From contig JAPLWX010000028.1 of assembly GCA_026396415.1 (NCBI GenBank), forward strand, positions 1,922 to 65,921: a stretch of 64,000 bases of DNA, in the 5' to 3' direction. The stretch comes from Candidatus Micrarchaeota archaeon. Its GTDB lineage: Archaea; Micrarchaeota; Micrarchaeia; Anstonellales; Anstonellaceae. The notes under the pieces were generated by a model. It made no database searches, was not told where the DNA came from, and worked only from the letters and a program-made list of their open reading frames with translations. The position numbers were made by a program, and so were the translations under genes. Shown here piece after piece: positions 11,650-57,569 of the stretch. Positions within the stretch are counted from its first letter, which is position 1. Each line of letters opens with the position of its first letter.

Positions 11650-11651
11650 GA

Positions 11652-12983: not shown

Positions 12984-13058
12984 ATAACACACCCAGGTAA
13001 CTATTATATGAAATGTATAATAGTATAGAATTATAAGAATAGCGCTTGCGCTTGAAAT

Positions 13059-33916: not shown

Positions 33917-35284
33917 TTATGCCTTCCCCGCCGCCTCACGCACGATTTCCGCGTATTCCTCCATCAGGCCCTCGGCGCGCTTTTTCGTTTTCCCCTCTGC
34001 AAACACGCGCATGCAGTCCTCGGTGCCCGATGCGCGCGCAATCACCCATCCGTCGTCAAAGTCGCAGCGCACGCCATCCGCCAGCGTGAGGCGGGCGCCG
34101 CTCCCCCTGGCATGCGCCTTCGCCGCGTTTAGCCCGGCTGCCTTTGCCTGCGCTCCTTTTGCCTCTATTTTTGTCTTGCTGTTGAAGTATTCGGGCAGTT
34201 CCGAGACAAGCTCGGAAAGCGGCGTGCGGCACGCCATTTCGCATATCTTTGCAGATGCGAACAGCCCGTCCTTGGCAAGCGAGAAGCGCGGCCAGATGAT
34301 GCCGCCCACCTCCTCCCCGCCCGAGACTGCGCGCGCGCCAAGGGCTGCCATTTTTTCGGACAGGTACGGCGCGCCGACCGCGGTGTAAACTGTTTTTGCC
34401 CCAAGCGCAGCGCATGCTTCCTCCACGCACCTGCTTGTCGCGACCGTGGTGACAATGAGCTTTTCCTTCTGCTTCTTGGCCTCGCGGCACGCCTGCACGG
34501 CCGAGATTGCAAATCCCTTGTCGCCCACTATCCAGCTGCCTTTTTCATCCACGAAAACCACGCGGTCCGAGTCGCCGTCCCAGGCAACCCCCAGGTCGCA
34601 GCCCTCCGCCTTCACTGTTTTGGCAAGCTGCTGCACATTCGCCTCGGTCGGCTCGGATGGCCTGCCGGGGAAATTGCCGTCGATGCTTTCATTCAGCGCA
34701 AACACTTCGCAGCCAAGGGAAGAGAACACCCCTTGCGAAAGCGCCGATGTCCCATTGCCAAAATCAAGGGCAATTCGCAGATGGCGCTTCCTTATTTTTG
34801 CCGCAGCCACGCCGCCTTGCACTGCGCGCGCATGCACGGCAGCTGCTTCGGGAATCGGGCGCGCTTTCCCGACGGATTGCCAGCCGGCCAGGCAGTAGGT
34901 CCTTGCAAGCGCGGTCTGCCCGATAAGCTCGCCGCGCTCGCGGCTGACCGCCACGCCTTCCCCGTCCACGAACTTCAGCGCGTTCCATTCCGGCGCATTG
35001 TGCGAGGCTGTCACTATCACCAGGCCGCCTGCCTTCTGCTGCGCAAGGGTGAACTCGGCAACAGGCGATGATGCCAGCCCGATATCCAGCACGTCCTTTC
35101 CCGCAGCCATTATTCCCGACGCAGCGGCTGAATGCAGCATTGGGGAGGTGAGGCGCATGTCGCGCGCAAGCACGATTGCCTGCCCTTTGCTCCAGCTGGC
35201 AAATGATGCGCACAGGCCGAATGCAAGCGCGGGCGTGAGGGCATCCAGCCTTCCGCGCACGCCGTTGGTTCCGAAAAGCGCCAT
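33917..35284 (-). CDS. phosphoglucosamine/phosphomanno-mutase (alpha-D-phosphohexomutase family)
   Basis: TASHNAPEWN active-site serine motif, GDGDSDR metal-binding loop and GTNGVRG N-terminus. Confidence 0.85.
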   Translation of the reverse strand: MALFGTNGVRGRLDALTPALAFGLCASFASWSKGQAIVLARDMRLTSPMLHSAAASGIMAAGKDVLDIGLASSPVAEFTLAQQKAGGLVIVTASHNAPEWNALKFVDGEGVAVSRERGELIGQTALARTYCLAGWQSVGKARPIPEAAAVHARAVQGGVAAAKIRKRHLRIALDFGNGTSALSQGVFSSLGCEVFALNESIDGNFPGRPSEPTEANVQQLAKTVKAEGCDLGVAWDGDSDRVVFVDEKGSWIVGDKGFAISAVQACREAKKQKEKLIVTTVATSRCVEEACAALGAKTVYTAVGAPYLSEKMAALGARAVSGGEEVGGIIWPRFSLAKDGLFASAKICEMACRTPLSELVSELPEYFNSKTKIEAKGAQAKAAGLNAAKAHARGSGARLTLADGVRCDFDDGWVIARASGTEDCMRVFAEGKTKKRAEGLMEEYAEIVREAAGKA

Positions 35285-35356
35285 CAAACCACCAAAGGCA
35301 GGCATCCGCCCCTGCCAGCCGTTTTTGTACCGAACAATGCCATAAAAACGCCAGAT

Positions 35357-36997
35357 TCAATCTTCCACGCCATAAGATGCTATCTTTTCCGCAATTGATA
35401 TCGCCCCCTGCGGCAGGTGCGCCTTGCCTGCGGCAGAATACAGCAGGTCAATGTCCTCGCGTTTGAAGGTGCGCAGAAGCAGCGCCACAACGCCGAACAG
35501 GGCAAGCCCCACGCAGCCCATGATGCCGAGAAGCGCGAGATAGGAGAATTTGTAGGCATAAAGCGCGATTTCGCCAGTGCCGATTGCAGGTATGCCAGAG
35601 GCGAGCAGGGCTGCGGATGGCTTGAGGAGCATTATTGCCGCAAAGGCAACTGCGCCGGCAATGAAGAGCTTGTAGATTTCGAGCGGGGTTTTGTAGTCAA
35701 GGTATTGCCTGCCATAGCGCTCAAACATCAGCGCCGAAAGCAGGAATGCCGCTGCGGAGGCGAATGCCGCGCCTTCCATGCCAAAGCCGGGTATCAGGAG
35801 GATGTTCAGTATGACATTTGCGATGCCCACCACAATGGCGACATTGAGCTCGAGGCGCACCAGGCGCATGCCTGCAAGTGCAAGCGTTATCGGATAGATG
35901 ATGGTGGAGAACATGAGGCCCAATATGAAAATCGCCATTGCATTGCCTCCTGAGCGGTACGGGCTTCCGTAGAAAACGGACAGCATCTCACCTGCAAATG
36001 CCATGGTGGCAAGCGCTATCGGGATGGTGATGAACAGTATCCAGCGCTGCGAAGTCTGCACCACCTTCCTCATGGTGGCGTGGTCGTCCTTGCCTGCGAG
36101 GCGGGAAATCACTGGAAGGAAAATGCTGCCGAATGCGCTGGGGAATACCATTATGGTCAGCGCAAGCTGGGTGGCAATCGAGTAAATTGCGACCGTCTCT
36201 ATCGATGTCGCCGGGTTGCCAAAATAGCCCAGAAGCATGCGGTCGGTGGAGGATATGAGCGCCCAGAATGATCCGACGATGGTGAGGGTTATGCCGAAGG
36301 GAAGAATGTCGTGCATCAGTTCCGAGTTGGAAAGCGGCCCGCCCTCTTTGAAATCGTGGCCCTCCATGCTGCGCAGAAGAATCGGCACGCTCAATAAGAG
36401 GGCTGCCAGGAAGGAAAGGGCAAAAGCCGCAGAAAGCGTGAACAGCGTGGCCCCATAAAAGCTGAAAAGCAGGAGGGTGAAAGCGAGCTTTGTTATGTTT
36501 TGCACGTTGCTGAGGAACTGGCACGATTTTATGTCGCCCCTGCCCTGGAGGTAGCTGGCGGGCACCTTGGATAGGTTTTCGAAGACCACGTATGCGGCAA
36601 GCAGGCGCAGCCCCTCTGCGAGGGCTGCGTTTTGATAGAACGCGCCTATGGGGTCGGCATATATGAAAAGCGCGGCTGAAAGCGCCGCGCCCAGCACCAG
36701 CTCCACTGCAAAACTTATCTTCAGGAGGGAGAGCGCCTTGCCGCCCTGCTTTTTTGCCTCGTAAAACGGGATGTAGCGCTGCAGCGCGGCAGGGAGCCCC
36801 AGGTCGCGCCAGAAGCCGACCACGCCTATCACCGAAAGCGCAAGGTAAAACAGCCCGACGTTCTCCTGGGAGAACGCGCGCGCCACGTAGATGGCATAGG
36901 CAAACGAGACCAGCTTGAGCAGGAGCGTGCCCACCAAGCCCCAGAAGCTGCCCCATGCAACCTCGTGGGAATGCTTGGCCGCATTATCATCTTCCAT
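35357..36997 (-). CDS. oligosaccharide flippase (MOP superfamily, Wzx/AglR-like)
   Basis: About 545 aa with 14 predicted TM segments and polysaccharide-biosynthesis-protein architecture. Confidence 0.75.
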   Translation of the reverse strand: MEDDNAAKHSHEVAWGSFWGLVGTLLLKLVSFAYAIYVARAFSQENVGLFYLALSVIGVVGFWRDLGLPAALQRYIPFYEAKKQGGKALSLLKISFAVELVLGAALSAALFIYADPIGAFYQNAALAEGLRLLAAYVVFENLSKVPASYLQGRGDIKSCQFLSNVQNITKLAFTLLLFSFYGATLFTLSAAFALSFLAALLLSVPILLRSMEGHDFKEGGPLSNSELMHDILPFGITLTIVGSFWALISSTDRMLLGYFGNPATSIETVAIYSIATQLALTIMVFPSAFGSIFLPVISRLAGKDDHATMRKVVQTSQRWILFITIPIALATMAFAGEMLSVFYGSPYRSGGNAMAIFILGLMFSTIIYPITLALAGMRLVRLELNVAIVVGIANVILNILLIPGFGMEGAAFASAAAFLLSALMFERYGRQYLDYKTPLEIYKLFIAGAVAFAAIMLLKPSAALLASGIPAIGTGEIALYAYKFSYLALLGIMGCVGLALFGVVALLLRTFKREDIDLLYSAAGKAHLPQGAISIAEKIASYGVED

Positions 36998-37058
36998 GGC
37001 GCTTGAATGTGCAGGATACTTATAAAATGGTATTTGGAGTGAATGACTGCGTGTTTGC

Positions 37059-37784
37059 ATGGAGCAGGACCCATCGGAGCTGACCGCCATAGTGCTTGCC
37101 GGGGGCCTAGGCACGCGGCTGCGCCCCATCACAGAGAAGGTGCCCAAGCCGCTGGTGATGGTGAAAGGCAGGCCTTTCCTGGATTACCTGCTGGAAAAAA
37201 TCGCGCGCATGGGGCTGAGGAGGTGCGTGCTGCTGGTCGGCTACAAGGGAGGGATGATTGAGGATTATTGCGGGGGCGGGAAAAAGTGGGGGCTGAAGAT
37301 ATCATACTCCCATGAGAAGGAGCAGCTGGGCACAGGCGGGGCGCTGGTGAATGCCGTTGCACACCTGCACTCTGCGGCGCTGGTGCTCAACGGAGACAGC
37401 TACCTGGACATTGACGCGCGCGCATTCTATGCATTCCACTGCAAGAGAGGGGCGCTGGCAACGGTCTATGCCATGCAGGGCGCGCTTGAGGCGCGCGGCG
37501 AGGTGGTGGCGGACGAGGCAGGCTGCGTGGAGGCGTTCCGCGAAAAGCAAGGGAGCGGCTTCGGGCTCTTCAACACCGGCGCGTACATCATCGAGAAGCA
37601 GGCTGTGGAATTCCTTGCGCAGCAGGTGGAGGAAGGCGCGCTTCCCGCCGCATTTTCCATGGAGCGCGACGGCTTTCCGCTTTTTGTGAAGAAAGGCTGG
37701 CTGTTTGCCCATGTCGGCACGGGGAAGTTTTTGGACATAGGCACATTCAAGTCGCTTGAGGAGGCGGGGGAAATGCTGCCGTAG
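37059..37784 (+). CDS. sugar-1-phosphate nucleotidyltransferase (heptose-1-P guanylyltransferase-like)
   Basis: IVLAGGLGTRLRPIT signature. 241-aa short form typical of HddC/GMPP-like enzymes. Confidence 0.7.
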   Translation: MEQDPSELTAIVLAGGLGTRLRPITEKVPKPLVMVKGRPFLDYLLEKIARMGLRRCVLLVGYKGGMIEDYCGGGKKWGLKISYSHEKEQLGTGGALVNAVAHLHSAALVLNGDSYLDIDARAFYAFHCKRGALATVYAMQGALEARGEVVADEAGCVEAFREKQGSGFGLFNTGAYIIEKQAVEFLAQQVEEGALPAAFSMERDGFPLFVKKGWLFAHVGTGKFLDIGTFKSLEEAGEMLP

Positions 37785-40849: not shown

Positions 40850-41758
40850 ATGAACAAGCGCGCTCTGATTTACGGCATTTCCGGCCAGGACGGCTCCTAC
40901 CTGAGCGAGCTGCTGCTTTCCAAAGGCTATGAGGTGGCCGGCACAGTGCGCAACCATGGGAAGGAAACGCTGCCGCCTGTTTCCAGCAAGGCAAAAATCT
41001 ACCGCGCCGACCTAGCAGCAAAGCCTGCGGGTTTTCTCCGCCCCATTGATGATTTTGAGCCCGATGAGGTTTACAACCTGGCAGGGATCCATCTGCAGCA
41101 CATCACCAGTCAAAACGCCCGGCTTGCGGAAAAAGTGAATGCCGCCGCCCCGGAATCGATGCTTGCCCATATCCATAGCCACTGCGCAATGGCGAAATTC
41201 TTCCAGGCATCTTCTGCATATGTATTTGGCGACAAGGCCGGCCGCGTGGATGAAAGCACATGCCCTGCCCCAAATTCCGTCTACGCCAGGACCAAGCTTG
41301 CGGCGCAGCAAAGCGTCCTGCGCTATCGCCTGCTGGGCATGTTTGCGGCAGCAGGCATACTTTTCAACCACGAATCTCCGCTCCGCAGCGAGGATTTCGT
41401 GACCAGGAAAATCTCAGCGTACGTGGCAAGGGAGAAACTTGGGCTCAATGGCGGCAAGGCGCTGATGCTCGGCAACCTGGACGCAAAGCGCGATTGGGGG
41501 TTTGCAGGGGACTATGTGGAAGCGATGTGGCTCATGCTGCAGCAGAAGCAGCCGGATGATTATGTCATTGCAACCGGCGAGCCGCACAGCGTGCGCGAAT
41601 TCTGCCAGGAGAAAAGCATGTCCGCTCCGACCCCGCCCTTGTCCGGCCCGAGTCGGGCTTCATGCTCGCAGATGCAAGCAAAGCGCGGGAAAAGCTTGGC
41701 TGGAAGCCCAGGATGGGATTTTCCGGCCTGGTCCGGCTCCTGGTGGATACTGATATAA
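40850..41758 (+). CDS. divergent GDP-mannose-4,6-dehydratase-like enzyme (C-terminus out of frame)
   Basis: IYGISGQDGSYL, NHESPLRSE and [11 protein letters not shown] blocks. After CQE the conserved GMD C-terminus ([19 protein letters not shown]) continues in the -1 frame. Confidence 0.55.
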   Translation: MNKRALIYGISGQDGSYLSELLLSKGYEVAGTVRNHGKETLPPVSSKAKIYRADLAAKPAGFLRPIDDFEPDEVYNLAGIHLQHITSQNARLAEKVNAAAPESMLAHIHSHCAMAKFFQASSAYVFGDKAGRVDESTCPAPNSVYARTKLAAQQSVLRYRLLGMFAAAGILFNHESPLRSEDFVTRKISAYVAREKLGLNGGKALMLGNLDAKRDWGFAGDYVEAMWLMLQQKQPDDYVIATGEPHSVREFCQEKSMSAPTPPLSGPSRASCSQMQAKRGKSLAGSPGWDFPAWSGSWWILI

Positions 41759-41789: not shown

Positions 41790-42683
<894 letters not shown>

Positions 42684-42753
42684 AGCTTGCGCGCATGATG
42701 GTGGATGCCGACATGTCCCATATAAAAAAGCTCCATAATATCTAAAACGTCAG

Positions 42754-44058
42754 ATGATGGTGGATACTGTGCAAAATGAAAAAATTCAACCGGTCAGGAA
42801 GATAACCTCGTGCCGCGTATGCGGCAATGCCAGCCTGGTCCCCATACTTTCGCTTGGCGACCAATACGTCTCGAATTTCGTGGCCTCTGAATCGGAACAG
42901 GGGGAAAAAATCCCGCTGAACATAGTCCTTTGCGAGGAAAAGAGCGGAGGATGCGGCCTTCTGCAGCTTGAGCACACCACGCCCCCCGACATAATGTATG
43001 CGCATTACTGGTATCTTTCCGGGATAAACGAGTCCATGAAAGTTGCGCTCGCAGACATAACCAAATGCGTGGAGGCCATGATTCCTCTCCAGGCAGGGGA
43101 CATGGTGCTGGACATTGGCTGCAACGACGGCACCCTTTTGCGCAGCTACACGAAAAAAGGGATAAAGCTGGTGGGCATTGACCCCGCCAAGAACCTGCCC
43201 AAGTACTCGTCGGTCGGCACCACCAAGATACTCAACGACTATTTTTCCGCGCGCACCGTGCAGAGGCATTTCCCAGGCGAAAAGGCGCGCGTGGTGACTG
43301 CCATTGCCATGTTTTATGACCTGGATGACCCGAATGGATTTGTAGCGGATGTTGCCGGCATATTGAGACAGGACGGCATTTTCGTGGTACAGATGAGCTA
43401 CCTGCCATTGATGCTGGAGACCAATGCGTTCGACAACATCTGCCACGAGCACCTGGAGTATTATTCCTTGGCTTCGCTTGGCAACCTGCTTGCAAGGCAC
43501 GGCTTGGAAATATTCGACATGTCCCAAAACGACGTCAACGGCGGAAGCTTCCGCGTCTATTGTCGCTTTGCGGGAAGCGCGGTGCCGCAGCCGCCTGGCG
43601 CCAAGCAGAGGCTTGCGGAATTCGTGCGCAGGGAAAGGGAAATGGGGCTGTCAGGCAGGAAGCCCTACGAGGATTTTTCATCCCGCGTGCAGGCCATCAG
43701 GGAAAAGACGGTCGCGTTCATCAAAAAGGAGCGGGCAGGCGGCAAGAGGATATTTGTCTACGGCGCCTCCACCAAGGGGAACACGCTGCTCCAGACTTTT
43801 GGGCTGGACCACAAAACGATCGAGGCTGCCGCAGAGCGGAACCCGGACAAGTACGGGAAGAAGACAATCGGCACGCTGATACCCATAATTTCAGAGGACG
43901 AGGCGCGGAAGCTCAAGCCCGATTATTTCCTGGTCCTTCCCTGGCACTTCATCAGCTCGTTCGTAAAGCGCGAAAGGGGCTATCTTTCCTCGGGCGGCAA
44001 ATTCATCGTGCCCCTGCCGGAGTTCAGGATAATCGGCTCGGCAGATGAGATGGGCTGA
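42754..44058 (+). CDS. NDP-hexose C-methyltransferase (TylCIII-like, zinc ribbon + MTase + C-MT C-terminal domain)
   Basis: N-terminal CRVCG..C..C zinc-binding module, DIGCNDGTLL SAM motif, and a C-terminal domain as in the Methyltransf_13/14 family. Confidence 0.7.
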   Translation: MMVDTVQNEKIQPVRKITSCRVCGNASLVPILSLGDQYVSNFVASESEQGEKIPLNIVLCEEKSGGCGLLQLEHTTPPDIMYAHYWYLSGINESMKVALADITKCVEAMIPLQAGDMVLDIGCNDGTLLRSYTKKGIKLVGIDPAKNLPKYSSVGTTKILNDYFSARTVQRHFPGEKARVVTAIAMFYDLDDPNGFVADVAGILRQDGIFVVQMSYLPLMLETNAFDNICHEHLEYYSLASLGNLLARHGLEIFDMSQNDVNGGSFRVYCRFAGSAVPQPPGAKQRLAEFVRREREMGLSGRKPYEDFSSRVQAIREKTVAFIKKERAGGKRIFVYGASTKGNTLLQTFGLDHKTIEAAAERNPDKYGKKTIGTLIPIISEDEARKLKPDYFLVLPWHFISSFVKRERGYLSSGGKFIVPLPEFRIIGSADEMG

Positions 44059-44198: not shown

Positions 44199-45368
44199 AT
44201 GGGCAAGGAGAAGATTCTTTTCATCTGCACGAGCATGCCTACGAGGCTCGGCGGCGTGCGAAGGCTCTACAACAACATGCTGTTTTTCTCGAAAAAATAT
44301 GAAATCCATTTCGCAAAGCTGACGCTTGACAATGCAAAGGCAGTGGCAGAAATCAAAATGCCCTCGTGGATAAACTTCGTGGAAGTGGCGCCTGGGAAAG
44401 TGCCTTTTGACCCCGAGATGGCGTGCCTGGTCCCGCCAGCCTGGAATGAATACAGGAGTGCCGGCGGCTGTGAAAAAAAGCTGCAGGAGTACATCGATAA
44501 GAACGGCATTGCCATTGTGTTCTGCCACTCGATAACGCTCTCGTTTGCGCTGCGGGGGCTGAAAGCAAAGGTAAAGATTGCGGATATTGTTGATTCTGTC
44601 CTGAATTATTACAAGACAAAGGACAATGCATGCCCGACAATCACATCCAAATTGCTCTATTTTTCCCAATCGGCATTGTACAGGCGGCTTGAAAAAATAA
44701 TAGACCGGGATTACGACCTGGTGCTTTTCTGCTCTGAAATAGACAGGCGGGAAAGCCTGATACCAAAAAACAAGACGTGCCTCTTGGATGTCATTTACAT
44801 ATCCGACTTGGAAAATGAGGAAAAGCAGGGGCCCAAAAACACCGGGGCCAGGCCCATCGACGTGGCAATCATGGGAAGATGGGAGCACCCGCCAAACCGG
44901 GATGGGCTTGCCCGCGTGGCAAAACAGCTCGGGAAAATCAATGGCAACATCAGGATTATCGGCCCGAACCTCCCCCAAAGGCTGCAGCTTCCGCCAAATG
45001 TGGAAAGGGTTGGGTTCGTGGATGACATTGAGGATACCCTGTCGAATTCCAAGGTGTGCCTTGTGCCGGTATGGTACGGCCCAGGCCTGCAGAACAAGGT
45101 GTTTGACGCATTGAAATGTGGGTGCATCATCGTATCGACCCCGCACACGAGAATACAGATGGAGGCGAATGGATTCCGCTCTGAATCGATCATATACACT
45201 GATGACATGGCAGGCGCCGTCAACACAGCACTGCAGAATTATGGGAATGAGGGCGCTGGCGGGATGTACAGGATATATTCGGAATGGGAAAAAATCTCGC
45301 GGAAAAACAAGATGGAATATTCGCAAAAGCTCGAGCGGATCCTGCAAAGCAAAGGCACGGACCCCTAG
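44199..45368 (+). CDS. glycosyltransferase (GT-B fold, GT4-like)
   Basis: C-terminal Glycos_transf_1-like region (VWYGPGLQNKVFDALKCGCIIVST). Confidence 0.55.
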   Translation: MGKEKILFICTSMPTRLGGVRRLYNNMLFFSKKYEIHFAKLTLDNAKAVAEIKMPSWINFVEVAPGKVPFDPEMACLVPPAWNEYRSAGGCEKKLQEYIDKNGIAIVFCHSITLSFALRGLKAKVKIADIVDSVLNYYKTKDNACPTITSKLLYFSQSALYRRLEKIIDRDYDLVLFCSEIDRRESLIPKNKTCLLDVIYISDLENEEKQGPKNTGARPIDVAIMGRWEHPPNRDGLARVAKQLGKINGNIRIIGPNLPQRLQLPPNVERVGFVDDIEDTLSNSKVCLVPVWYGPGLQNKVFDALKCGCIIVSTPHTRIQMEANGFRSESIIYTDDMAGAVNTALQNYGNEGAGGMYRIYSEWEKISRKNKMEYSQKLERILQSKGTDP

Positions 45369-45431: not shown

Positions 45432-46109
45432 ATGAAAAACAAACTGGCTGGATGGGCGGCTTCAATAAGGAACCTGTGGATGATGCGCCAGCTGAACGCC
45501 GCCCGTTTTGGCGAGATACTCAACGAGGCGACGATTTACGGGACTCCGGAAGCGGGAAGGGTGCATTTCAATGGCAGGCTGGCGACATTCGCATTCTTGG
45601 GCAGGAAACTGACGCTGAGAGAGGGCGAAGTCGAGCTCGTCGAGGTATTCTTCCATGACATCTATGGCAGGCTCGATGTGAAAGGCAAAACAGTAATCGA
45701 TGCCGGCTGCGGGGTCGGAGACACTCCGATAGTATTTTCCCTGCGGGGGGCAAACCATGTCATAGGATACGACGCGAATGAAAAGAGAATAGAAACGGCA
45801 AAGTGGAACGTTGGCAGGAATTGCATCAAAAACACGGATCTTTCATGCAGGTTCATCAAAAGCCTTGCGGAGCTGCCATTCGGCGAAGCCCTGAAGATTG
45901 ATATCGAAGGGGGAGAACATGAAATATTCAGAGAGGCAGAAGATCGGGACATATTGAAGTTCGATGAGATAATAATGGAATGCCATGGCGGATACAATGA
46001 TATCGAAGGCAGGCTGCGAGGGCTGGGGTATGAAACGGAAATATACAATCCGACCTTCAACGGCAGGAACGTGATGCTATATGCAAAAAAGGCAGGTGGA
46101 AAAAGATGA
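45432..46109 (+). CDS. FkbM-family methyltransferase
   Basis: VIDAGCGVGDT and LKIDIEGGEHEIF motifs characteristic of the FkbM domain. Confidence 0.7.
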   Translation: MKNKLAGWAASIRNLWMMRQLNAARFGEILNEATIYGTPEAGRVHFNGRLATFAFLGRKLTLREGEVELVEVFFHDIYGRLDVKGKTVIDAGCGVGDTPIVFSLRGANHVIGYDANEKRIETAKWNVGRNCIKNTDLSCRFIKSLAELPFGEALKIDIEGGEHEIFREAEDRDILKFDEIIMECHGGYNDIEGRLRGLGYETEIYNPTFNGRNVMLYAKKAGGKR

Positions 46110-46828
46110 AAGCGGACTACAAGGATTACTTCAAGATGACGCTTGGCGGCTTCAACCTCAAGGACTACGTATATTTTGAATCCGAATATGCTTTCCGCCA
46201 CCATTTTGACCGCACCCAGCCGCCAGGGGCATTGCTGGATTTCGGGGGCAGGATAGGCGAGAAGACGCGCCGCATTGGGAACGTGGTGGTGTGTGAGGTC
46301 GATGGCTCCGCGAGGAGGTGGATGTCGGAGCATGGCGTGAAGCACGTCGCATCAATCGACAAGGTGGAGAACGGCTCTGTCGGAACCGTATACGCGTCCC
46401 ACGTCCTGGAGCATCTCGAAAATCCAATGGAGTTCTTGTTCAAGTTCAACGCAAAACTGGGGCGCAAAGGCAGGCTGATAATTGTCGTGCCGGCCGAAGT
46501 GCAGTCCTTGGAGCCGAAAGCCCCCATCGTGGACCCTAACGGGCATATCCAGTGCTGGAACTTCGCCACGCTGATGACCTCGCTCGACCGCGCCGGGTTC
46601 AAGGTTGTGAAATGGCGGTACAACGTATTCATATGGACGCTGAAGCTGTCCAGGATGCAAAACCGCAAGCTCATGCTGCGCCTGATGGACCTGGAGGAGG
46701 CTTTGTCCAGGCGGCGGTCGTATCGTTTCATGCTCTTCTCGCTTTACTATTGGCTAAGGCCGTTCAGCAGGTTATTGCCGTGGATGGACCCGAGGCTCGA
46801 GCTGCTTGCGGTCGCGGAAAAAAAGTGA
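46106..46828 (+). CDS. class I SAM-dependent methyltransferase
   Basis: LLDFGGRIG glycine-rich motif and ASHVLEHLENP (Methyltransf_11-like). Overlaps the upstream stop by 4 nt. Confidence 0.55.
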   Translation: MKADYKDYFKMTLGGFNLKDYVYFESEYAFRHHFDRTQPPGALLDFGGRIGEKTRRIGNVVVCEVDGSARRWMSEHGVKHVASIDKVENGSVGTVYASHVLEHLENPMEFLFKFNAKLGRKGRLIIVVPAEVQSLEPKAPIVDPNGHIQCWNFATLMTSLDRAGFKVVKWRYNVFIWTLKLSRMQNRKLMLRLMDLEEALSRRRSYRFMLFSLYYWLRPFSRLLPWMDPRLELLAVAEKK

Positions 46829-46899: not shown

Positions 46900-47934
46900 A
46901 TGGGGGATATGGCTATCATGATGGTCAATATCGTCTACCCTGGGCAGAGGGGCAGCAATCTGGAAGCCGCCCTGGCATTCCATGAAATATCCGGCAGCCT
47001 TGGAATTGAAAACCAGCTTATCCTTTCTTCGGACCTGGCGCGGAAGGGCAAAGCCAGGGAGATTTATCCGGAAGCCAAGTTTTTCAATTTCCTTTCCATT
47101 TCCGGCGTGTCCGACCTGAAAAGGGAATTATCAGGCTCCCCTGCCTTCTTTACCATGGTGTCCCCGAAGCTCATGCCGCTTTATCTCTCCGCCACAGGCA
47201 AAAAAATCCTGTATTTCCACGCCACGTATGATTATTCTTTCTCGCGGCCTTCTTTCAAGGATGCGGCGCTTGAAAAAATGTCGGAATTTCTCATGAAAAG
47301 GTCGGATCTGGTGCTTGCAACCCAGTACCCCCTGGCATGGCAGATACGCATGAGGCTCGGAATCAAGGCGGAGGTGCTGCCCCATCCGTCGTATTCTGCC
47401 ATCAGGAAAGGCTTTTTTGAAGAGTCGCAGCGCGTCGGGCTGCCTTTCAAGGATTATTTCCTGTCCTTTGGCGGGCTTGACAGGGCGTCAAAAGGCAATG
47501 ATGTGCTTCTTGAGGCAGTCAAGGGCACAGAAATCCCCATCGTGCTTGCAGGCAAGGCAAATGCGGACCATTCCGGCTCCAAAAACATCGCCCACTTGAA
47601 CCGCTGGGTGAGCGACGCGGAATTGTTCTGGCTTGTGGAGAATTCAAGGGCGGTTGTGCTTCCTTATCTCACATCCTCCCAGTTTTCAGGATGCCTCGCG
47701 CTCGCATACAGGTTTGGAAAGCCGGTGGTTGCGCCATTTTGCAATTCATTCCAGAAATATGTCGAGGATGGGAAGACAGGCGTGCTGTTCGAGCAGGGGA
47801 ACCACCACGACCTTAGGGAAAAGCTCCGGGAATTTGATTCTTGGATCCACTGTTCCGAAAGTTCATTGGTTAAGCTTGAAAAAAGAATGGATGCATCCTG
47901 CGCCTCGAAGTTCCAGGAAATCCTCGGCGCTTAG
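46900..47934 (+). CDS. glycosyltransferase family 4 (GT-B)
   Basis: C-terminal Glycos_transf_1 motif block (GCLALAYRFGKPVVAP...EDGKTGVL). A longer upstream ORF extension lacks GT features. Confidence 0.65.
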   Translation: MGDMAIMMVNIVYPGQRGSNLEAALAFHEISGSLGIENQLILSSDLARKGKAREIYPEAKFFNFLSISGVSDLKRELSGSPAFFTMVSPKLMPLYLSATGKKILYFHATYDYSFSRPSFKDAALEKMSEFLMKRSDLVLATQYPLAWQIRMRLGIKAEVLPHPSYSAIRKGFFEESQRVGLPFKDYFLSFGGLDRASKGNDVLLEAVKGTEIPIVLAGKANADHSGSKNIAHLNRWVSDAELFWLVENSRAVVLPYLTSSQFSGCLALAYRFGKPVVAPFCNSFQKYVEDGKTGVLFEQGNHHDLREKLREFDSWIHCSESSLVKLEKRMDASCASKFQEILGA

Positions 47935-47944
47935 ATGGCATGTG

Positions 47945-48913
47945 TCAAATCCCTATTTCACCAAGATTTTCAGGAGTAGGCATCCGCCTTTTTTCAATCG
48001 AGCGCATGGTTGAGGCGGCATCGAGCATGGTGAGCGGGATTGACAACACTGCGACCAATGCAGCCGCAATGCCAGGCCTTGCGTTCTTATGGGCCTTTAT
48101 ATCGGTTTCTGAAAACTCCTGCAGCCTCACTGTCTTTGCAAGCGCCCTGTCGCCAAGCATGATTGCGAAGGTGTTGTAGTAGCAGAACCATGCAAAAAAC
48201 CGCGCGTAAGAGAACGCGTCATATTGCCATGAGATTGAGAAGGCAAGCATCAGGCCCCTCAGGTATGGATAGTATTTCTTGGGGTTTTTGAGCTTCTCCG
48301 TTATGCCCATCCCGATTTTTTCATGAACCACGTTCCCGCCCCGGTACACCATGGCTTGCCGGTAATGCCTCAGCCTGTTTGAGAATTCCCAGTCCTCCCC
48401 GCCCCTGCGCGTATAAGGTATTTCAAACCCGATTTTTTCAAAAACCGCCCTTGGGAAAACGCCCCACTGGTTCACCACAAAATAATTGCCGTCGGGCTTT
48501 TTCTCCCGCGGGGCTTTTGAGAGGGGCATGACCGCCATGCCCGTCCGCCTTGCGAGCTTTATCATTTCATCCAGCGTCTTTTTGGAGTCGAGGAATGCGT
48601 CAAGGTCGGCCACCACGATGATCTCGTATCCCAGGCGGTATGACAGTGCCTGGCCCGCAAAAAAGCAGCCCGAGGTGCCAAGCGGGATTTTTTCAAAGCA
48701 GCAAAGCGCGGAAAGCCCGGTTTTCCTGGCCGCAAGCCCCTTGCGGAAAAGGAAGACGAAGTCCGCCTCCTTGTCGATGCCGAGCTTTTTTACATGGGCT
48801 AAGAACGCCTCGAGCTGCCCCAGGTCGCCGACCGGGCTGAAAATCACAACGCTGCGCCTGCCTTGCCTCGCGTCCGCAAAGCCGTCCAGCAGGCCGAACC
48901 CGTCCAAGCTCAT
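47945..48913 (-). CDS. GT-A-like glycosyltransferase (paralog 3 of 3)
   Basis: PLGTSGCFFAGQ, ADLDAF and GGEDWEF blocks align with 38019-39368. Start ATGA overlaps the stop of the upstream gene. Confidence 0.55.
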   Translation of the reverse strand: MSLDGFGLLDGFADARQGRRSVVIFSPVGDLGQLEAFLAHVKKLGIDKEADFVFLFRKGLAARKTGLSALCCFEKIPLGTSGCFFAGQALSYRLGYEIIVVADLDAFLDSKKTLDEMIKLARRTGMAVMPLSKAPREKKPDGNYFVVNQWGVFPRAVFEKIGFEIPYTRRGGEDWEFSNRLRHYRQAMVYRGGNVVHEKIGMGITEKLKNPKKYYPYLRGLMLAFSISWQYDAFSYARFFAWFCYYNTFAIMLGDRALAKTVRLQEFSETDIKAHKNARPGIAAALVAVLSIPLTMLDAASTMRSIEKRRMPTPENLGEIGI

Positions 48914-49689
48914 TGTTTCCCCCGTTTCCATTCTTCCGCAAATGCGCGAACCGTTTCCTCGGACGACATGACATTGGTTTCGCGCTCCAGCTTTTCCGTC
49001 GATATGTCAAACAGCGCCTTTTCCTTGCCGGAGGACGACAGCTTCACGCCGGCAATTTTTGCAAATTCTGAAAGCTCAAGCGCACCCCTGCCAGCCACGT
49101 TGTAAGCCTCGCCCCATTTCCCTTTCCCGCAAAGGTGCATTGCGATCCGCGCCACCTCGCGCGTGCCCATGAAGTGCAATCGCGATTTTTCGGAAAGGAA
49201 GAGCCTGCCGCCGTGCAATATGTCGTACGCCGGCCCCTTTGTCATGTTCCTGCCCACCATGCCCGCCAGCCTGAGTATCATCCAGCTTTTTGCGTGTTTC
49301 CTTGCAGCAAGCTCGCCGCAGTATTTCGAGAACCCGTAGTTGGAAAGGGAGGAGGGGGATATCACCGCGTCTTCGCGGGTTGCCGCCCTGCTTGACTTGT
49401 CATTGTACACTTCAACCGTGGAGAGGTGCACATAATGCCTGCATGGGATGCCTTGCAAAAAGCCCACGGTCGATGCGGCATTCATTTCGAAGTCCGCCTC
49501 GGGGTCCTCATCGGCCAGCCTCTTGCTGGAGTTGCCGTCCGCGTTTATCAGAATGTCGAATTCCGTGCCCTTCAAGCCGGCATGGCCCGCCCTGCCGATC
49601 CCGACTACCTCATGCTGCCCGCCGGCTGAGAAAACTTCGTAAAATGCCGAGCCCACAAATCCCTTGTAGCCTATTATGCCCACTTTCAT
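48910..49689 (-). CDS. NAD(P)-dependent sugar epimerase/reductase (short-chain, RmlD-like)
   Basis: MKVGIIGYKGFVG Rossmann N-terminus and YGFSK (YxxxK). Confidence 0.6.
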   Translation of the reverse strand: MKVGIIGYKGFVGSAFYEVFSAGGQHEVVGIGRAGHAGLKGTEFDILINADGNSSKRLADEDPEADFEMNAASTVGFLQGIPCRHYVHLSTVEVYNDKSSRAATREDAVISPSSLSNYGFSKYCGELAARKHAKSWMILRLAGMVGRNMTKGPAYDILHGGRLFLSEKSRLHFMGTREVARIAMHLCGKGKWGEAYNVAGRGALELSEFAKIAGVKLSSSGKEKALFDISTEKLERETNVMSSEETVRAFAEEWKRGKQ

Positions 49690-49705
49690 GTAAACCCCGC
49701 CTGTT

Positions 49706-50665
49706 CTAGAGCCGCGCCTTGCCCTGGTTGGCCGCAAACCAATCGTAAGTTTTCCGTATCCCTTCCTTCAGCCCGACCCTGGGATTGAACCCCAGTATCC
49801 TGCGCATGCGCTTGGTGTCAAACACCTTGGCCATGTGCCCGTCGGGCTTGGACGAGTCCCACGCGATTTTGCCCTCGAAGCCGACCGCTTCCGCGACGGC
49901 CTCCGCCGTTTCCCGGATGCTAACGCCCACACCCGATGAAACGTTTATCGGAAGCTCCTCGTGGTGCTTATCAAGCGCGAGCACGAATGCGTCCGCAACG
50001 TCATCCACATATACAAAATCGCGCACGGGCTTTCCGCTCCCCCAAACCTCGACTTGCTTGTCGCCCCTCTCTTTTGCGAAATGGAAGCGGCGCATCAGGC
50101 CAGGTATGACGTGCGAGTTTTTCTCTGAAAAATTGTCATGGGGGCCGTATGCATTGCCGGGTATAAGCGACACCCAGTCCAGGCCATGCTGCCTCCGGTA
50201 GGCAACAAGCTGCAGGTGGTTCGCAGCCTTTCCAAGCGAATAGAACATGGCGTTCTCGTCAGGCAGCCCCCCTTCCCTGAACAGGTATTCCTCCTTTATG
50301 GGGTTGGGGGCGTTCTTGCCAAATGAGCAGCCGCAGAAAGAATAGATGAGGCGCTTCACCCCTGCACGCCGCGCCTCCTCCAGGAAAATGGTGTTCATGC
50401 CCATGTTCTGGTAGATGAATTCGCCGGGGTAGGCTTTGTTCGCCATTATGCCGCCCACGCGCGCAGCGAGGTGGATGACCGTGTCCGCCTGCACGTCGCG
50501 GAAAAGCGCGCGCACCCTTGCCTGCTCGAGCAGGTCGTAATCAAGCCTCGAAGGCGCGATTGTTTCGTGCCCCGCCTTCTTTAGCCGGGGCAGAAGCGCC
50601 GTTCCAATAAAGCCGTTTGCACCGGTCACAAGCACTCTCATGTTCCCCGCCTTCCCCGGCATCAT
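49706..50665 (-). CDS. fcl: GDP-L-fucose synthase (GDP-4-keto-6-deoxymannose 3,5-epimerase/4-reductase)
   Basis: VLVTGANGFIG, YSLGKAANH, VWGSGKPVRDFVYVDD and SKPDG blocks. Alternative start at 50641 (MRVLVTG). Confidence 0.8.
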   Translation of the reverse strand: MMPGKAGNMRVLVTGANGFIGTALLPRLKKAGHETIAPSRLDYDLLEQARVRALFRDVQADTVIHLAARVGGIMANKAYPGEFIYQNMGMNTIFLEEARRAGVKRLIYSFCGCSFGKNAPNPIKEEYLFREGGLPDENAMFYSLGKAANHLQLVAYRRQHGLDWVSLIPGNAYGPHDNFSEKNSHVIPGLMRRFHFAKERGDKQVEVWGSGKPVRDFVYVDDVADAFVLALDKHHEELPINVSSGVGVSIRETAEAVAEAVGFEGKIAWDSSKPDGHMAKVFDTKRMRRILGFNPRVGLKEGIRKTYDWFAANQGKARL

Positions 50666-55272: not shown

Positions 55273-55362
55273 GGATAGCCCCGTCGCTTGGGCCTGCGGC
55301 AATCCCCGGCAGCAGGGGATTTCGCGCATCGGGCGCAGTATTTTAAGCATTGGATTTCGGAT

Positions 55363-56157
55363 ATGCTCATGGAGAATTCCACCAAGGTCGTAATACTTTG
55401 CGGGGGGGAAGGCACGCGCATGCGCGAGGAGACCGAGTACGTTCCAAAGCCCATGGTGAAAATCGGCGGGATGCCCATCCTTTGGCACATAATGAAGATC
55501 TATTCTGCGCAGGGCTATAGCAACTTCGTGATCTGCCTCGGCTATAAGGGGGACATGATAAAGCAGTTCTTCCTCAACCACGAGCTCATGCAGAACGACG
55601 TTACAATCAACCTCGGGGATAGGGGGCTGGATGTTGTCCACAAGGGAAGCGGCTCCGAGGACTGGGCCATAACCTTTGCTGACACCGGGCTCAAGGCGCA
55701 GACAGGCGCCAGAATCAAGAGGATCGAGAAATACATAGATGGTGACCATTTCCTTGCCACATACGGCGACGGGGTTTCAGACATAAACCTGGCAAAAGAG
55801 CTGGAATTCCACAAAATGATGGGGGTCACCGCCACCCTTGCGGGAGTATCGCCCTACTCCAAATTCGGGATAGTCAAGTCCAACTCGCAGGGCCTGGTCG
55901 AAAAGTTTGTTGAAAAGCCCATGCTTTACGACTATGTCAATGGCGGCTACTACATATTCAATCGCAATATCTTCGACTTCCTGCAGGCGGACGAGTCATG
56001 CATCCTTGAGACAAGGCCTTTCAACGCCCTTGTCGAGAAAAGGCAGATGGCAATGTACCGGCATGACGGCTTTTGGCACTGCATGGACACGTACAAGGAC
56101 TATCTTGAGCTGAACGGGATATGGGACAGCGGCGCGCGCCCTTGGAAAATCCAGTAG
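55363..56157 (+). CDS. rfbF: glucose-1-phosphate cytidylyltransferase
   Basis: VILCGGEGTRMREETEYVPKPMV and GFWHCMDTYKD blocks diagnostic of RfbF/DdhA. Confidence 0.8.
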   Translation: MLMENSTKVVILCGGEGTRMREETEYVPKPMVKIGGMPILWHIMKIYSAQGYSNFVICLGYKGDMIKQFFLNHELMQNDVTINLGDRGLDVVHKGSGSEDWAITFADTGLKAQTGARIKRIEKYIDGDHFLATYGDGVSDINLAKELEFHKMMGVTATLAGVSPYSKFGIVKSNSQGLVEKFVEKPMLYDYVNGGYYIFNRNIFDFLQADESCILETRPFNALVEKRQMAMYRHDGFWHCMDTYKDYLELNGIWDSGARPWKIQ

Positions 56158-57058: not shown

Positions 57059-57569
57059 AATCCTGCCCCTGGAGGGCGCGCTGAAGCTGAGCCAGTTCTT
57101 CGCATCCGACGAGAGGGGGGGCATCCTGAAGGCTGCAGAGGCAGAGCTATTGGAGAGGCTCGGCTTTAGCATAACCGAAGTCCTGTTCTCAACCAACAGG
57201 AAAGGCGCGCTCCGCGGGATGCACTACCAGGACCCGTCCCCGCAGGCAAAAATCGTCTTTTGCATTTCCGGCAGGGTGTTTGACGTCATTGCTGACCTGA
57301 GGCCTGGCTCGAGAACGCACAGGAAATGGCTTGGCATCGAGCTTAGCAAAGAGAACAGGACGGGAATTTACGCCCCAAAAGGCTTTGCGCACGGGTTCCT
57401 GTCCCTTGAGGAAAACAGCACCCTGGCATACCTGATAGACGGGAAGGTGGAGCCGGAAAGCGAGCGCGGCATAAGGTACGACGACCCTGCGCTTGGCATA
57501 GCATGGCCAGTCTTGGGGATAAAGCCGGTCCTCAGCAAAAGAGACAGGGGATTTGCCCTGCTGGAATGA
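57051..57569 (+). CDS. NDP-4-keto-6-deoxy-sugar 3,5-epimerase (RmlC-like cupin)
   Basis: RGMHYQ, GIYAPKGFAHGF and IRYDDPALGIAWP blocks. GTG start overlaps the upstream stop. Confidence 0.7.
   Translation: MIEILPLEGALKLSQFFASDERGGILKAAEAELLERLGFSITEVLFSTNRKGALRGMHYQDPSPQAKIVFCISGRVFDVIADLRPGSRTHRKWLGIELSKENRTGIYAPKGFAHGFLSLEENSTLAYLIDGKVEPESERGIRYDDPALGIAWPVLGIKPVLSKRDRGFALLE

What the first reader, a model, noticed from the sequence alone, without database searches (positions are those of the whole stretch)
42754..44058. Two TylCIII-like NDP-hexose C-methyltransferase paralogs
Proteins 42754-44058 and 57583-58869 both have an N-terminal Cys4 zinc ribbon, a class-I SAM fold and the C-terminal C-methyltransferase domain. 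Sugar C-methylation gives branched-chain sugars, which are typical of antibiotic deoxysugars and rare bacterial glycans. Two copies next to an OST gene suggest C-branched sugars in an archaeal glycan.
Basis: partly seen in the sequence, partly recalled or inferred. Interest (0 to 1): 0.65.

Follow-up and report, generated by a model that had tools for sequence, protein, structure and literature searches.

The report
Two sugar C-methyltransferase genes, two pathways
A DPANN archaeon (Micrarchaeota) carries two distantly related genes of the enzyme family that adds a methyl branch to a carbon of an activated sugar; one sits in a GDP-mannose pathway and the other in a CDP-glucose pathway, inside a surface-glycan gene island, so the cell probably makes rare C-branched sugars, though no experiment shows this.

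Summary
Both ORFs exist: MT1 at 42754-44058 (+) and MT2 at 57583-58869 (minus strand; likely start 58815). Both have the Cys4 zinc domain, a class I SAM fold and the PF08484 C-terminal domain, and both align end to end with the solved sugar 3-C-methyltransferases MtmC, TcaB9 and KijD1.

They are not recent duplicates (33% identity).
- **MT2** is canonical. It is about 42% identical to MtmC and TcaB9 and keeps all five residues that were mutated in TcaB9. It lies beside a glucose-1-phosphate cytidylyltransferase-like gene, an RmlC-like epimerase and an RmlD-like reductase, one gene away from an AglB oligosaccharyltransferase.
- **MT1** belongs to a large clade for which I found no characterised member, common in DPANN archaea and CPR bacteria. 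In this clade TcaB9 His181 is always Asp and Tyr222 is usually Cys, while the Glu224/His225 pair is kept. [quoted passage not shown] Relatives sit next to GMD orthologues in 15 of 80 loci, and 11 of the 149 closest cluster representatives are fused to GMD-family domains.

Best reading: two separate NDP-4-keto-6-deoxyhexose C-methylation pathways feeding a surface glycan.

Caveats: there is no biochemistry, both GMD-family genes are frame-disrupted in this assembly, and no CDP-glucose dehydratase is identified. This is a new member of a known kind, of moderate interest.

The parts
42754..44058 (+). MT1: TylCIII/TcaB9-superfamily methyltransferase of the divergent 'Asp-for-His181' clade. Key residues: zinc C20/C23/C60/C67; SAM motif DIGCNDG at 120-126; D189 (= TcaB9 H181); C230 (= Y222); E232/H233 (= E224/H225).
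57583..58869 (-). MT2: canonical NDP-hexose 3-C-methyltransferase-like protein; the true start is probably GTG at 58815 (410 aa). Key residues (428-aa numbering): zinc C25/C28/C68/C71; H193, Y234, E236, H237, the equivalents of TcaB9 H181, Y222, E224 and H225; the Y76 equivalent is also conserved.
41796..42745 (+). [quoted passage not shown] The reading frame breaks at about 42575 in this assembly. In the correct downstream frame the stop is at 42743-42745, 8 nt before MT1.
   Evidence: Pfam 1.1e-118; NCBIfam TIGR01472 418 bits, above its cut-off of 415; frame analysis.
40850..41758 (+). GMD paralogue lacking the dehydratase Glu (SSAYVFG). It is the candidate GDP-4-keto-6-deoxyhexose 4-reductase (Rmd-like). 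Its 3' end is also out of frame after the shared 146-nt block.
44199..45368 (+). GT1-type glycosyltransferase directly downstream of MT1; candidate transferase for the MT1 product.
   Evidence: The same MT-then-GT1 arrangement occurs in L002, L003 and L004, and a GT1 is the +1 gene in 13 of 78 loci.
45432..46828 (+). Two small class I methyltransferases (45432-46109 and 46106-46828), possibly O-methylating the sugar or the glycan.
46918..47934 (+). Second GT1 glycosyltransferase. The start is taken from the independent gene call (338 aa).
55288..56157 (+). Glucose-1-phosphate cytidylyltransferase-like enzyme. The profile match starts at residue 33, so the true start is near 55381.
   Evidence: TIGR02623 287.7 bits, just under its cut-off of 300; 45-69% identical homologues next to MT2-type genes in L085-L087.
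56180..57058 (+). RmlD-like NDP-4-ketohexose reductase (motif SSDGVY...YTFTK).
56988..57569 (+). RmlC-like 3,5- (or 5-) epimerase, convergent with MT2 (13-nt gap). The true start is probably near 57060.
   Evidence: Two MT2-type proteins carry a PF00908 domain as a fusion (P0198, P0231).
58959..60005 (+). SDR between MT2 and AglB (motif ASSCSVYG...YAKAK), epimerase/reductase-like. Orthologues follow the cytidylyltransferase in L086 and lie near MT2-type genes in L087.
48910..49737 (-). Short SDR with a T-x-E motif (STVEVY...YGFSK); a weak candidate for the unidentified 4,6-dehydratase of the CDP branch.
   Evidence: A 58% identical orthologue is in L086.
49706..50665 (-). GDP-L-fucose synthase-like epimerase/reductase; an alternative finishing enzyme for the GDP branch.
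   Evidence: NF047922 309 bits, below its cut-off of 500. Homologues lie near MT1-type genes in 11 loci.
60014..63118 (-). AglB-type oligosaccharyltransferase: WWDYG at aa 761 (60824-60838) and about 15 hydrophobic segments.
33917..37784 (.). Supply and export genes of the island: phosphomannomutase (33917-35305, -), Wzx/MurJ-type flippase (35357-37147, -), and a mannose-1-phosphate guanylyltransferase-like nucleotidyltransferase (37059-37784, +).

Best explanation
The window carries two different NDP-4-keto-6-deoxyhexose C-methyltransferases. They serve two separate nucleotide-sugar pathways within one archaeal (Micrarchaeota) glycosylation island.

**MT2 (canonical)**
- It most likely uses the TcaB9/TylC3 mechanism. 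This mechanism is from my knowledge of those enzymes, not tested here: the His of the Glu-His pair removes the C3 proton next to the 4-keto group, and the resulting enolate attacks the methyl group of SAM.
- The likely substrate is CDP-4-keto-6-deoxyglucose.
- The RmlC-like epimerase and RmlD-like reductase would then finish a CDP-6-deoxy-3-C-methyl-L-hexose.
- This mirrors the last three steps of L-mycarose synthesis (methyltransferase, 5-epimerase, 4-reductase) without 2-deoxygenation.

**MT1 (divergent clade)**
- It most likely methylates GDP-4-keto-6-deoxy-D-mannose made by the GMD gene directly upstream. C3 is the more likely position; C5 is not excluded.
- The GMD paralogue that lacks the dehydratase Glu, or the Fcl-like enzyme, then reduces C4.
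- The product would be a GDP-6-deoxy-3-C-methylhexose of the evalose/virenose type.
- The adjacent GT1 transfers it, and the two small methyltransferases may add O-methyl groups.

**Shown**: domain architecture, fold, residue conservation, gene neighbourhoods and fusions.
**Inferred**: substrates, carbon position, stereochemistry and the final glycan acceptor.
For: **Family membership**
- Pfam finds all three domains in both proteins.
- Both align end to end with solved enzymes. MT2 scores E 1.7e-104 to MtmC and 1.5e-95 to TcaB9. MT1 scores 6.1e-62 and 3e-42.
- The AlphaFold model of MT1 (pLDDT 94.3, pTM 0.91) superposes on MtmC, KijD1 and TcaB9 at TM 0.85-0.94 and rmsd 2.0-2.6 A. The next hits cover only the methyltransferase core, with TMq about 0.3.

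**Residues**
- The zinc Cys4, Tyr76, Glu224 and His225 are invariant in both subfamilies.
- MT2-type proteins also keep His181 and Tyr222 in 112 of 112 sequences.

**MT1 and the GDP-mannose branch**
- Rmd-like gene, GMD, MT1 and GT1 are co-directional, with gaps of 37 nt, 8 nt and 140 nt.
- GMD orthologues (at least 45% identical) lie within 8 kb of MT1-type genes in 24 of 80 genome loci. In 15 loci they are directly adjacent and co-oriented.
- Among the 149 closest 50%-cluster representatives, 11 are fused to a GMD-family domain. Nine of those keep the dehydratase S/T-x-E motif. One further representative is fused to a GT1 and one to a nucleotidyltransferase.
- Fusion to the enzyme that makes the 4-keto sugar is what a C-methyltransferase needing an enolisable ketone would predict.

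**MT2 and the CDP-glucose branch**
- The cytidylyltransferase-like, RmlD-like and RmlC-like genes are adjacent to it.
- The same module surrounds MT2-type genes in L085, L086 and L087. L085 includes an SDR with an STDK motif, which I recall as the CDP-glucose 4,6-dehydratase signature.
- Two MT2-type proteins are fused to an RmlC-like domain.

**Setting and precedent**
- The island is archaeal and holds AglB, a flippase, a GT4 phosphosugar transferase and many glycosyltransferases.
- A GMD plus TylCIII-like pathway has been proposed in silico for Coxiella virenose (PMC3539893).
Against: - No member of the MT1 clade is characterised, as far as I could find.
- MT1 lacks two of the five TcaB9 residues that were chosen for mutagenesis, and other lining motifs differ as well: ExPYL becomes QMSYL, VHGG becomes VNGG, AWN becomes PWH. 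A different regiochemistry or even a different acceptor atom cannot be excluded.
- Both GMD-family genes upstream of MT1 lose their reading frame in this assembly, and neither product is on record. If that is real, the GDP branch would be dead in this organism.
- No SDR in the window carries a recognisable CDP-glucose 4,6-dehydratase motif.
- The cytidylyltransferase, RmlC-like and RmlD-like proteins all score below their NCBIfam equivalog cut-offs, so the nucleotide carrier of the MT2 branch is not certain.
- GMD is absent within 8 kb of most MT1-type genes: 28 of the 43 loci with full flanks have none.
- Nothing links the products to AglB except position.
Confidence: 0.6

Rival explanations
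1. MT1-type enzymes are not C-methyltransferases. The His181-to-Asp and Tyr222-to-Cys changes mark a switch to another reaction on a GDP-sugar, for example O-methylation, with Asp acting as a base or as a metal ligand.
For: Asp replaces His181 in 116 of 116 clade members. Cys replaces Tyr222 in 104 of 116, and Ser, Val or Gly in the rest. Several other active-site-region motifs are clade-specific. I found no characterised member. A GT1 and small methyltransferases are frequent neighbours, as in methylated-polysaccharide loci.
Against: The Glu-His pair, Tyr76 and the whole fold are retained. Adjacency and fusion to GMD-type 4,6-dehydratases tie the enzyme to the 4-keto intermediate; an O-methyltransferase has no particular need for that intermediate. 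Every solved structure that matches over the full length is a sugar 3-C-methyltransferase.
Confidence: 0.17
2. The enzymes do make C-methyl sugars, but these go into a glycoconjugate other than an AglB-dependent N-glycan: a lipid-linked polysaccharide, an O-glycan or a capsule-like polymer.
For: MT1 is 16 kb from AglB and has its own GT1 and methyltransferase genes. The same MT1-type and MT2-type modules occur in CPR and other bacteria that have no AglB. The island also encodes a Wzx-like flippase and a 12-segment membrane protein of unknown function.
Against: MT2 is one gene away from AglB. The island also holds a GT4 phosphosugar transferase typical of the first step of archaeal N-glycan assembly.
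Confidence: 0.35
3. The GDP branch is a decaying remnant. GMD and its paralogue are true pseudogenes homogenised by gene conversion, and MT1 has no substrate in this organism.
For: A 146-nt block is 99% identical between the two genes while the rest is 70-78% identical, and both genes lose their frame immediately after it. Neither ORF product is on record.
Against: An independent assembly (Logan, SRR20698651) breaks 9 nt upstream of the junction and reads an in-frame [14 protein letters not shown] there. This pattern suggests a repeat-induced assembly error. MT1 itself is intact and under obvious constraint, with every family-invariant residue present.
Confidence: 0.2

Closest known systems
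TcaB9 (Micromonospora chalcea), KijD1 (Actinomadura kijaniata), MtmC (Streptomyces argillaceus) and, by extension, TylC3/EryBIII: dTDP-4-keto-sugar 3-C-methyltransferases of antibiotic deoxysugar pathways
   Same: The three-domain architecture, the Cys4 zinc site and the Glu-His pair are shared. Similarity runs over the full length in both sequence and fold. MT2 also keeps His181, Tyr222 and Tyr76 and is about 42% identical to MtmC and TcaB9.
   Different: The host is an archaeon and the setting is a surface-glycan island, not a secondary-metabolite cluster. No 2,3-dehydratase or 3-ketoreductase genes are nearby, so the sugars would keep their 2-OH. The likely carriers are CDP (MT2) and GDP (MT1) rather than dTDP. 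MT1 has Asp and Cys in place of His181 and Tyr222 and is only 27-31% identical.
Proposed GDP-virenose pathway of Coxiella burnetii (GMD CBU_0689 plus TylCIII-like CBU_0691; PMC3539893)
   Same: A GMD gene lies beside a TylCIII-family methyltransferase in a surface-polysaccharide locus. The predicted product is a 6-deoxy-3-C-methylhexose made from GDP-mannose.
   Different: CBU_0691 is reported as 42-44% identical to TylCIII, EryBIII and AviG1, which suggests the canonical type, whereas MT1 belongs to the Asp-for-His clade. The Coxiella pathway is itself only an in-silico proposal.
Late steps of L-mycarose synthesis (TylC3 methyltransferase, TylK 5-epimerase, TylC2 4-ketoreductase); from my own knowledge of the pathway
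   Same: The MT2 module combines the same three enzyme types: C-methyltransferase, RmlC-like epimerase and RmlD-like reductase. Some homologues fuse the methyltransferase and the epimerase.
   Different: The nucleotidyltransferase is cytidylyl-type, and no 2-deoxygenation genes are present. CDP-vinelose (6-deoxy-3-C-methyl-2-O-methyl-L-talose) of Azotobacter, which I cite from memory, may be the nearer chemical analogue.

Membership tests
TylCIII/TcaB9-type NDP-hexose C-methyltransferases | Three-domain architecture: PF08421 zinc domain, class I SAM methyltransferase domain and PF08484 C-terminal domain, aligned over the full length | tested here: met
   Both proteins: Pfam; alignments covering residues 7-416 and 10-415 of MtmC; MT1 model at TM 0.85-0.94 to MtmC, KijD1 and TcaB9.
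TylCIII/TcaB9-type NDP-hexose C-methyltransferases | Four zinc-binding cysteines | tested here: met
   Invariant in both subfamilies. MT1 uses C20/C23/C60/C67, with Cx6C as the second pair. MT2 uses C25/C28/C68/C71. Metal binding itself was not tested.
TylCIII/TcaB9-type NDP-hexose C-methyltransferases | Glu224/His225 pair (the proposed catalytic base, from my recollection of the TcaB9 work) and Tyr76 | tested here: met
   Invariant in 116 MT1-type and 112 MT2-type sequences. The PDB entry titles confirm that these residues were the ones mutated.
TylCIII/TcaB9-type NDP-hexose C-methyltransferases | His181 and Tyr222 of the sugar pocket | tested here: not met
   Met for MT2 (H193, Y234). Not met for MT1, which has D189 and C230. 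Across the MT1 clade, Asp is present in 116 of 116 sequences and Cys in 104 of 116. MT1 is therefore filed in the superfamily but not in the canonical subfamily.
TylCIII/TcaB9-type NDP-hexose C-methyltransferases | A source of NDP-4-keto-6-deoxyhexose (a 4,6-dehydratase) in the same pathway | tested here: inconclusive
   MT1: a GMD lies directly upstream, with adjacency and fusions in relatives, but the gene is frame-disrupted here. MT2: no recognisable CDP-glucose 4,6-dehydratase in the window, although one is present in the homologous module of L085.
TylCIII/TcaB9-type NDP-hexose C-methyltransferases | SAM-dependent methyl transfer to a carbon of the sugar | not testable with these tools
   This needs an enzyme assay with MS or NMR of the product.
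AglB/STT3 oligosaccharyltransferase (the neighbouring gene 60014-63118) | WWDXG motif after a multi-span membrane domain | tested here: met
   WWDYG at aa 761 and about 15 hydrophobic segments. Profile matches are weak: PF21436 at 24 bits and TIGR04154 at 39 bits, far below its cut-off.

The most novel reading that the evidence does not exclude
MT1 represents a large GMD-coupled clade of sugar methyltransferases with no characterised member that I could find. It has Asp in place of the His181 found in the studied enzymes. The clade is spread through DPANN archaea and CPR bacteria and is often invaded by inteins. It would make a GDP-linked C-branched 6-deoxyhexose not yet described in Archaea, possibly by a modified mechanism or at a different carbon. 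C-branched sugars would then be a common surface feature of these ultra-small organisms rather than a rarity of antibiotics and a few LPS types.
Probability: 0.4. Interest if true: 0.6.

Novelty: new member of a known kind. Interest (0 to 1): 0.42.

Why it matters
3-C-methyl sugars are regarded as uncommon outside antibiotic deoxysugars; a recent NMR review singles out 3-C-methyl-mannose of Helicobacter pylori as a rarity (PMC9912281). My single literature search found no report of one in an archaeal glycan.

The data here give a concrete, cheap test. Two soluble enzymes can be assayed with substrates that are easy to make: GDP-mannose plus GMD, and CDP- or dTDP-4-keto-6-deoxyglucose.

The MT1 clade is the more useful lead.
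- The superfamily holds thousands of sequences: 2,964 clusters at 50% identity with E <= 1e-30.
- MT1-type genes are common in DPANN and CPR genomes: 371 hits among species-representative genomes.
- Characterising one member would annotate many genes at once.
- It would also show whether the Asp-for-His change alters the chemistry.

This matters for annotation and glycobiology. It does not overturn anything.

Tried and rejected
- **NCBIfam**: it has no model for either methyltransferase. MT1 gave only sub-threshold generic methyltransferase hits, and MT2 gave none.
- **Primary TcaB9 papers**: I could not open them by DOI, PMID or a guessed PMC id. The roles of His181, Tyr222 and His225 therefore rest on my memory plus the PDB entry titles.
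the accessible papers give no function for it, and I had no sequence to align, so it was dropped.
- **Pseudomonas PA5457/PA5459**: I checked these as a possible example of a GMD-linked O-methyltransferase of this family. They are described as WbdD-like small methyltransferases and are not relevant.
- **Pfam-name literature search**: nothing useful.
- **tRNA and Rfam scans of the window**: empty.
- **Independent contig across the GMD junction**: exact-product look-ups for the Rmd-like ORF, the GMD ORF and the upstream ORF all found nothing.
- **SDR 58959-60005 as the CDP-glucose 4,6-dehydratase**: considered because of its position in L086, but set aside because its ASSCSVYG motif looks like an epimerase/reductase.
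- **Recent duplication of the two methyltransferases**: rejected on identity and tree position.
Full report
**1. The observation**

Both ORFs exist at the stated coordinates.
- MT1 is 42754-44058 on the + strand, 434 aa.
- MT2 is 57583-58869 on the minus strand, a 428-aa ORF.
- The identical NCBI protein for MT2 and almost all its homologues are about 410 aa. A GTG at 58815 follows a GGAGG-like site, so 57583-58815 is the more likely gene.
- Pfam finds the zinc domain PF08421, a class I methyltransferase domain and PF08484 in both proteins. E-values range from 1e-12 to 1e-56, all above the curated cut-offs.
- There is no third copy in the window.

**2. What the proteins are**

Against all PDB sequences, both align over nearly their whole length with MtmC (4rv9), TcaB9 (3ndi and its mutants) and KijD1 (5t64). 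All three are sugar 3-C-methyltransferases.
- MT2 scores E 1.7e-104 to MtmC and 1.5e-95 to TcaB9. MT1 scores 6.1e-62 and 3e-42.
- An AlphaFold model of MT1, built on a 57-sequence alignment, is confident (pLDDT 94.3, pTM 0.91).
- It superposes on those three enzymes at TM 0.85-0.94.
- All other PDB hits cover only the methyltransferase core, with TMq about 0.3.
- One caution, from my recollection of the TcaB9 structure papers, which I could not open: the PF08484 domain is the NDP-sugar-binding domain. On that reading its presence shows an NDP-sugar substrate rather than C-methylation as such.

**3. Two subfamilies, not a duplication**

| Comparison | Identity |
|---|---|
| MT1 vs MT2 | 33% |
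| MT2 vs MtmC / TcaB9 | about 42% |
| MT2 vs its listed database relatives (at or above 50% cluster distance) | 49-67% |
| MT1 vs MtmC / TcaB9 | 31% / 27% |
| MT1 vs its own relatives | 56-84% |

- In a neighbour-joining tree, MT2 and its relatives group with MtmC and TcaB9, while the MT1 clade sits on a long separate branch.
- The residue numbering was anchored on PDB 4e2w, whose sequence reads LCNIP and whose title says 'H181N'.
- The zinc Cys4, Tyr76, Glu224 and His225 are invariant in 116 MT1-type and 112 MT2-type sequences.
- His181 and Tyr222 are kept in all MT2-type sequences.
- In the MT1 clade, His181 is Asp in 116 of 116 sequences, and Tyr222 is Cys in 104 of 116 (Ser, Val or Gly in the rest).
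- Other motifs also differ by clade: ExPYL becomes QMSYL, VHGG becomes VNGG, AWN becomes PWH, and D-T/S-x-P-x-KQ becomes ERNPDK(W/Y).

**4. Context of MT1**

The order on the + strand is:
1. a GMD paralogue (40850-41758),
2. GMD (41796-42745),
3. MT1,
4. a GT1 (44199-45368),
5. two small methyltransferases,
6. a second GT1.

Gaps around MT1 are short.
- GMD passes the NCBIfam equivalog cut-off even though it is truncated (418 bits against 415).
- The paralogue scores 216 bits and lacks the dehydratase Glu (SSAYVFG against SSSEQFG). That fits a 4-reductase of the Rmd type.

Comparison with 80 genome loci that carry MT1-type genes:
- All are MAGs, mostly DPANN archaea, CPR bacteria and Planctomycetia.
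- 24 have a GMD orthologue (at least 45% identical) within 8 kb.
- 15 of those are directly adjacent and co-oriented.
- Several have the GMD-plus-paralogue pair.
- An SDR of some kind is present in 53 of 78 loci, and a GT1 in 44.

The strongest link comes from gene fusions.
- Among the 149 nearest 50%-identity cluster representatives, 11 are fused to a GDP_Man_Dehyd-family domain.
- Nine of those keep the S/T-x-E dehydratase motif and two lack it.
- One further representative is fused to a GT1 and one to a nucleotidyltransferase.
- An enzyme that must enolise a 4-keto sugar is expected to be coupled to the 4,6-dehydratase that makes it.

**5. Context of MT2**

MT2 is convergent with an RmlC-like gene (13-nt gap). 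Upstream of that lie an RmlD-like reductase and a nucleotidyltransferase whose best match is glucose-1-phosphate cytidylyltransferase (TIGR02623, 287.7 bits against a cut-off of 300).
- The same set surrounds MT2-type genes in three unrelated contigs, L085-L087. The cytidylyltransferase there is 45-69% identical to the window's.
- L085 also has an SDR with the STDK motif, which I recall as the CDP-glucose 4,6-dehydratase signature.
- Two MT2-type proteins are fused to an RmlC-like domain.
- The window itself has no SDR with that dehydratase motif.
- The SDR at 58959-60005, whose orthologue follows the cytidylyltransferase in L086, looks like an epimerase or reductase.
- The short SDR at 48910-49737 has a T-x-E motif. 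It is only a weak candidate for the dehydratase.

**6. Organism and island**

The identical proteins are deposited as 'Candidatus Micrarchaeota archaeon', on an 89,492-bp contig.

Archaeal markers and island genes in the window:
- HMG-CoA reductase.
- A geranylgeranylglycerol-phosphate geranylgeranyltransferase-like prenyltransferase.
- An AglB-type OST: WWDYG at aa 761, about 15 hydrophobic segments, and weak STT3/AglB profile hits.
- From about 27 kb to 63 kb: a GT4 phosphosugar transferase, a UDP-GlcNAc 2-epimerase, a phosphomannomutase, a flippase, three nucleotidyltransferases, eight SDRs (counting GMD, its paralogue and the RmlD-like reductase), a GHMP sugar kinase and several glycosyltransferases.

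MT2 is one gene away from AglB. MT1 is 16 kb away.

**7. Most likely mechanism**

*MT2.*
- With all probed residues conserved, the TcaB9/TylC3 mechanism is the default. This is from my knowledge of those enzymes: His225 abstracts H3, the enolate is held in the pocket, and C3 attacks SAM.
- Epimerisation and 4-reduction would then give a CDP-6-deoxy-3-C-methyl-L-hexose.

*MT1.*
- The Glu-His pair is present, so the same chemistry on GDP-4-keto-6-deoxy-D-mannose is the best guess. Reduction by the Glu-less GMD paralogue or by the Fcl-like enzyme at 49706-50665 would follow.
- The Asp and Cys replacements may adapt the pocket to a sugar that keeps its axial 2-OH and to a GDP carrier. They could also signal a different position (C5) or a different acceptor atom.
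- I put about 0.75 on C-methylation of a GDP-4-keto sugar by MT1 and about 0.85 on C-methylation by MT2.
- I put 0.6 on the whole two-pathway picture.

**8. Caveats**

- A 146-nt block (41466-41611 and 42430-42575) is 99% identical between the GMD paralogue and GMD, although the rest of the two genes is 70-78% identical. Both genes leave their reading frame right after it.
- Compared with normal GMDs (from my knowledge of their length), some tens of codons also seem to be missing.
- An independent Logan assembly ends 9 nt upstream of the junction and reads an in-frame [14 protein letters not shown] there.
- Neither ORF product is on record.
- I read this as a repeat-induced assembly error, but real pseudogenes homogenised by gene conversion are not excluded.
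- No biochemical data exist for either protein or, as far as I could find, for any MT1-type protein.

**9. Comparison with what is known, and novelty**

- MT2 is a new archaeal member of the canonical family, set in a mycarose-like late-step module but with a CDP-type activating enzyme.
- MT1 works like the same family but fails one membership feature (His181/Tyr222). I file it in the superfamily, in a clade with no characterised member that I could find.
- The nearest published idea is the in-silico GMD plus TylCIII-like route to virenose in Coxiella (PMC3539893). There the methyltransferase is reported as 42-44% identical to TylCIII, which suggests the canonical type.
- 3-C-methyl sugars are described as uncommon (PMC9912281), and a literature search for one in an archaeal N-glycan found nothing.
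- Overall this is a new member of a known kind, with a moderately interesting sub-clade attached. Interest is 0.42.

**10. Dead ends**

See 'tried and rejected': the TcaB9 papers were inaccessible, no function was found for Cj1420, PA5457/PA5459 proved irrelevant, NCBIfam has no model, the RNA scans were empty, and no independent contig across the GMD junction could be found.

Noticed in passing
window 41466-41611 and 42430-42575: A 146-nt block is 99% identical between the GMD paralogue and GMD, while the rest of the two genes is 70-78% identical. Both genes lose their reading frame immediately after the block, and an independent Logan contig ends 9 nt upstream of the junction. This is either an assembly chimera or gene conversion with pseudogenisation.
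   Followed up: partly
related proteins P0245, P0280, P0297, P0308 (Pfam-confirmed) and P0287, P0305, P0315, P0324, P0325, P0344, P0374, P0380, P0385 (split alignments only): Many MT1-type homologues are interrupted by inserts of 150-400 aa. Pfam identifies intein splicing and/or LAGLIDADG domains in four of the six tested. The insertion points differ, at roughly MT1 residues 87, 120, 170, 220-236 and 346. Several of these fall in or beside conserved motifs: HYWY, the SAM motif DIGCNDG, the FDNICHEH catalytic motif and YGASTKGNT.
   Followed up: partly
window 13920-15119 and 16586-17728: Two paralogous tyrosine recombinases (Phage_integrase plus a double zinc ribbon) lie in a stretch of lower G+C (0.47-0.49, against 0.55-0.61 elsewhere). 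This may be an integrated mobile element.
   Followed up: no
window 38019-39368 (-), 39388-40758 (+), 47945-48931 (-): Three mutually related proteins have no Pfam or NCBIfam match. Each has an N-terminal stretch resembling a GT-A glycosyltransferase start (for example LLIIVPSYHD) and one or two C-terminal hydrophobic segments. Orthologues 52-59% identical sit next to an MT2-type gene in L086.
   Followed up: partly
window 25369-27162 (+): A 597-aa protein with about 12 hydrophobic segments and no family match lies directly upstream of the GT4 phosphosugar transferase. It may be an unrecognised membrane glycosyltransferase or polymerase.
   Followed up: no
window 51728-52765 (+): A GHMP kinase whose best match is D-glycero-D-manno-heptose 7-phosphate kinase HddA (213 bits, far below the cut-off of 600). 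This hints at a further sugar-1-phosphate or heptose branch in the island.
   Followed up: no
window 11053-12992 (-): A myo-inositol-1-phosphate synthase lies next to a CDP-alcohol phosphatidyltransferase. By my reading this gene pair would make an inositol phospholipid.
   Followed up: no
L044 and L061 (Saccharibacteria MAGs); L043 (Iainarchaeum MAG): Other genomes also carry an MT1-type and an MT2-type gene within 3 kb of each other (L044, L061), or two MT1-type genes in tandem (L043). The pairing seen in this window is therefore not unique.
   Followed up: partly
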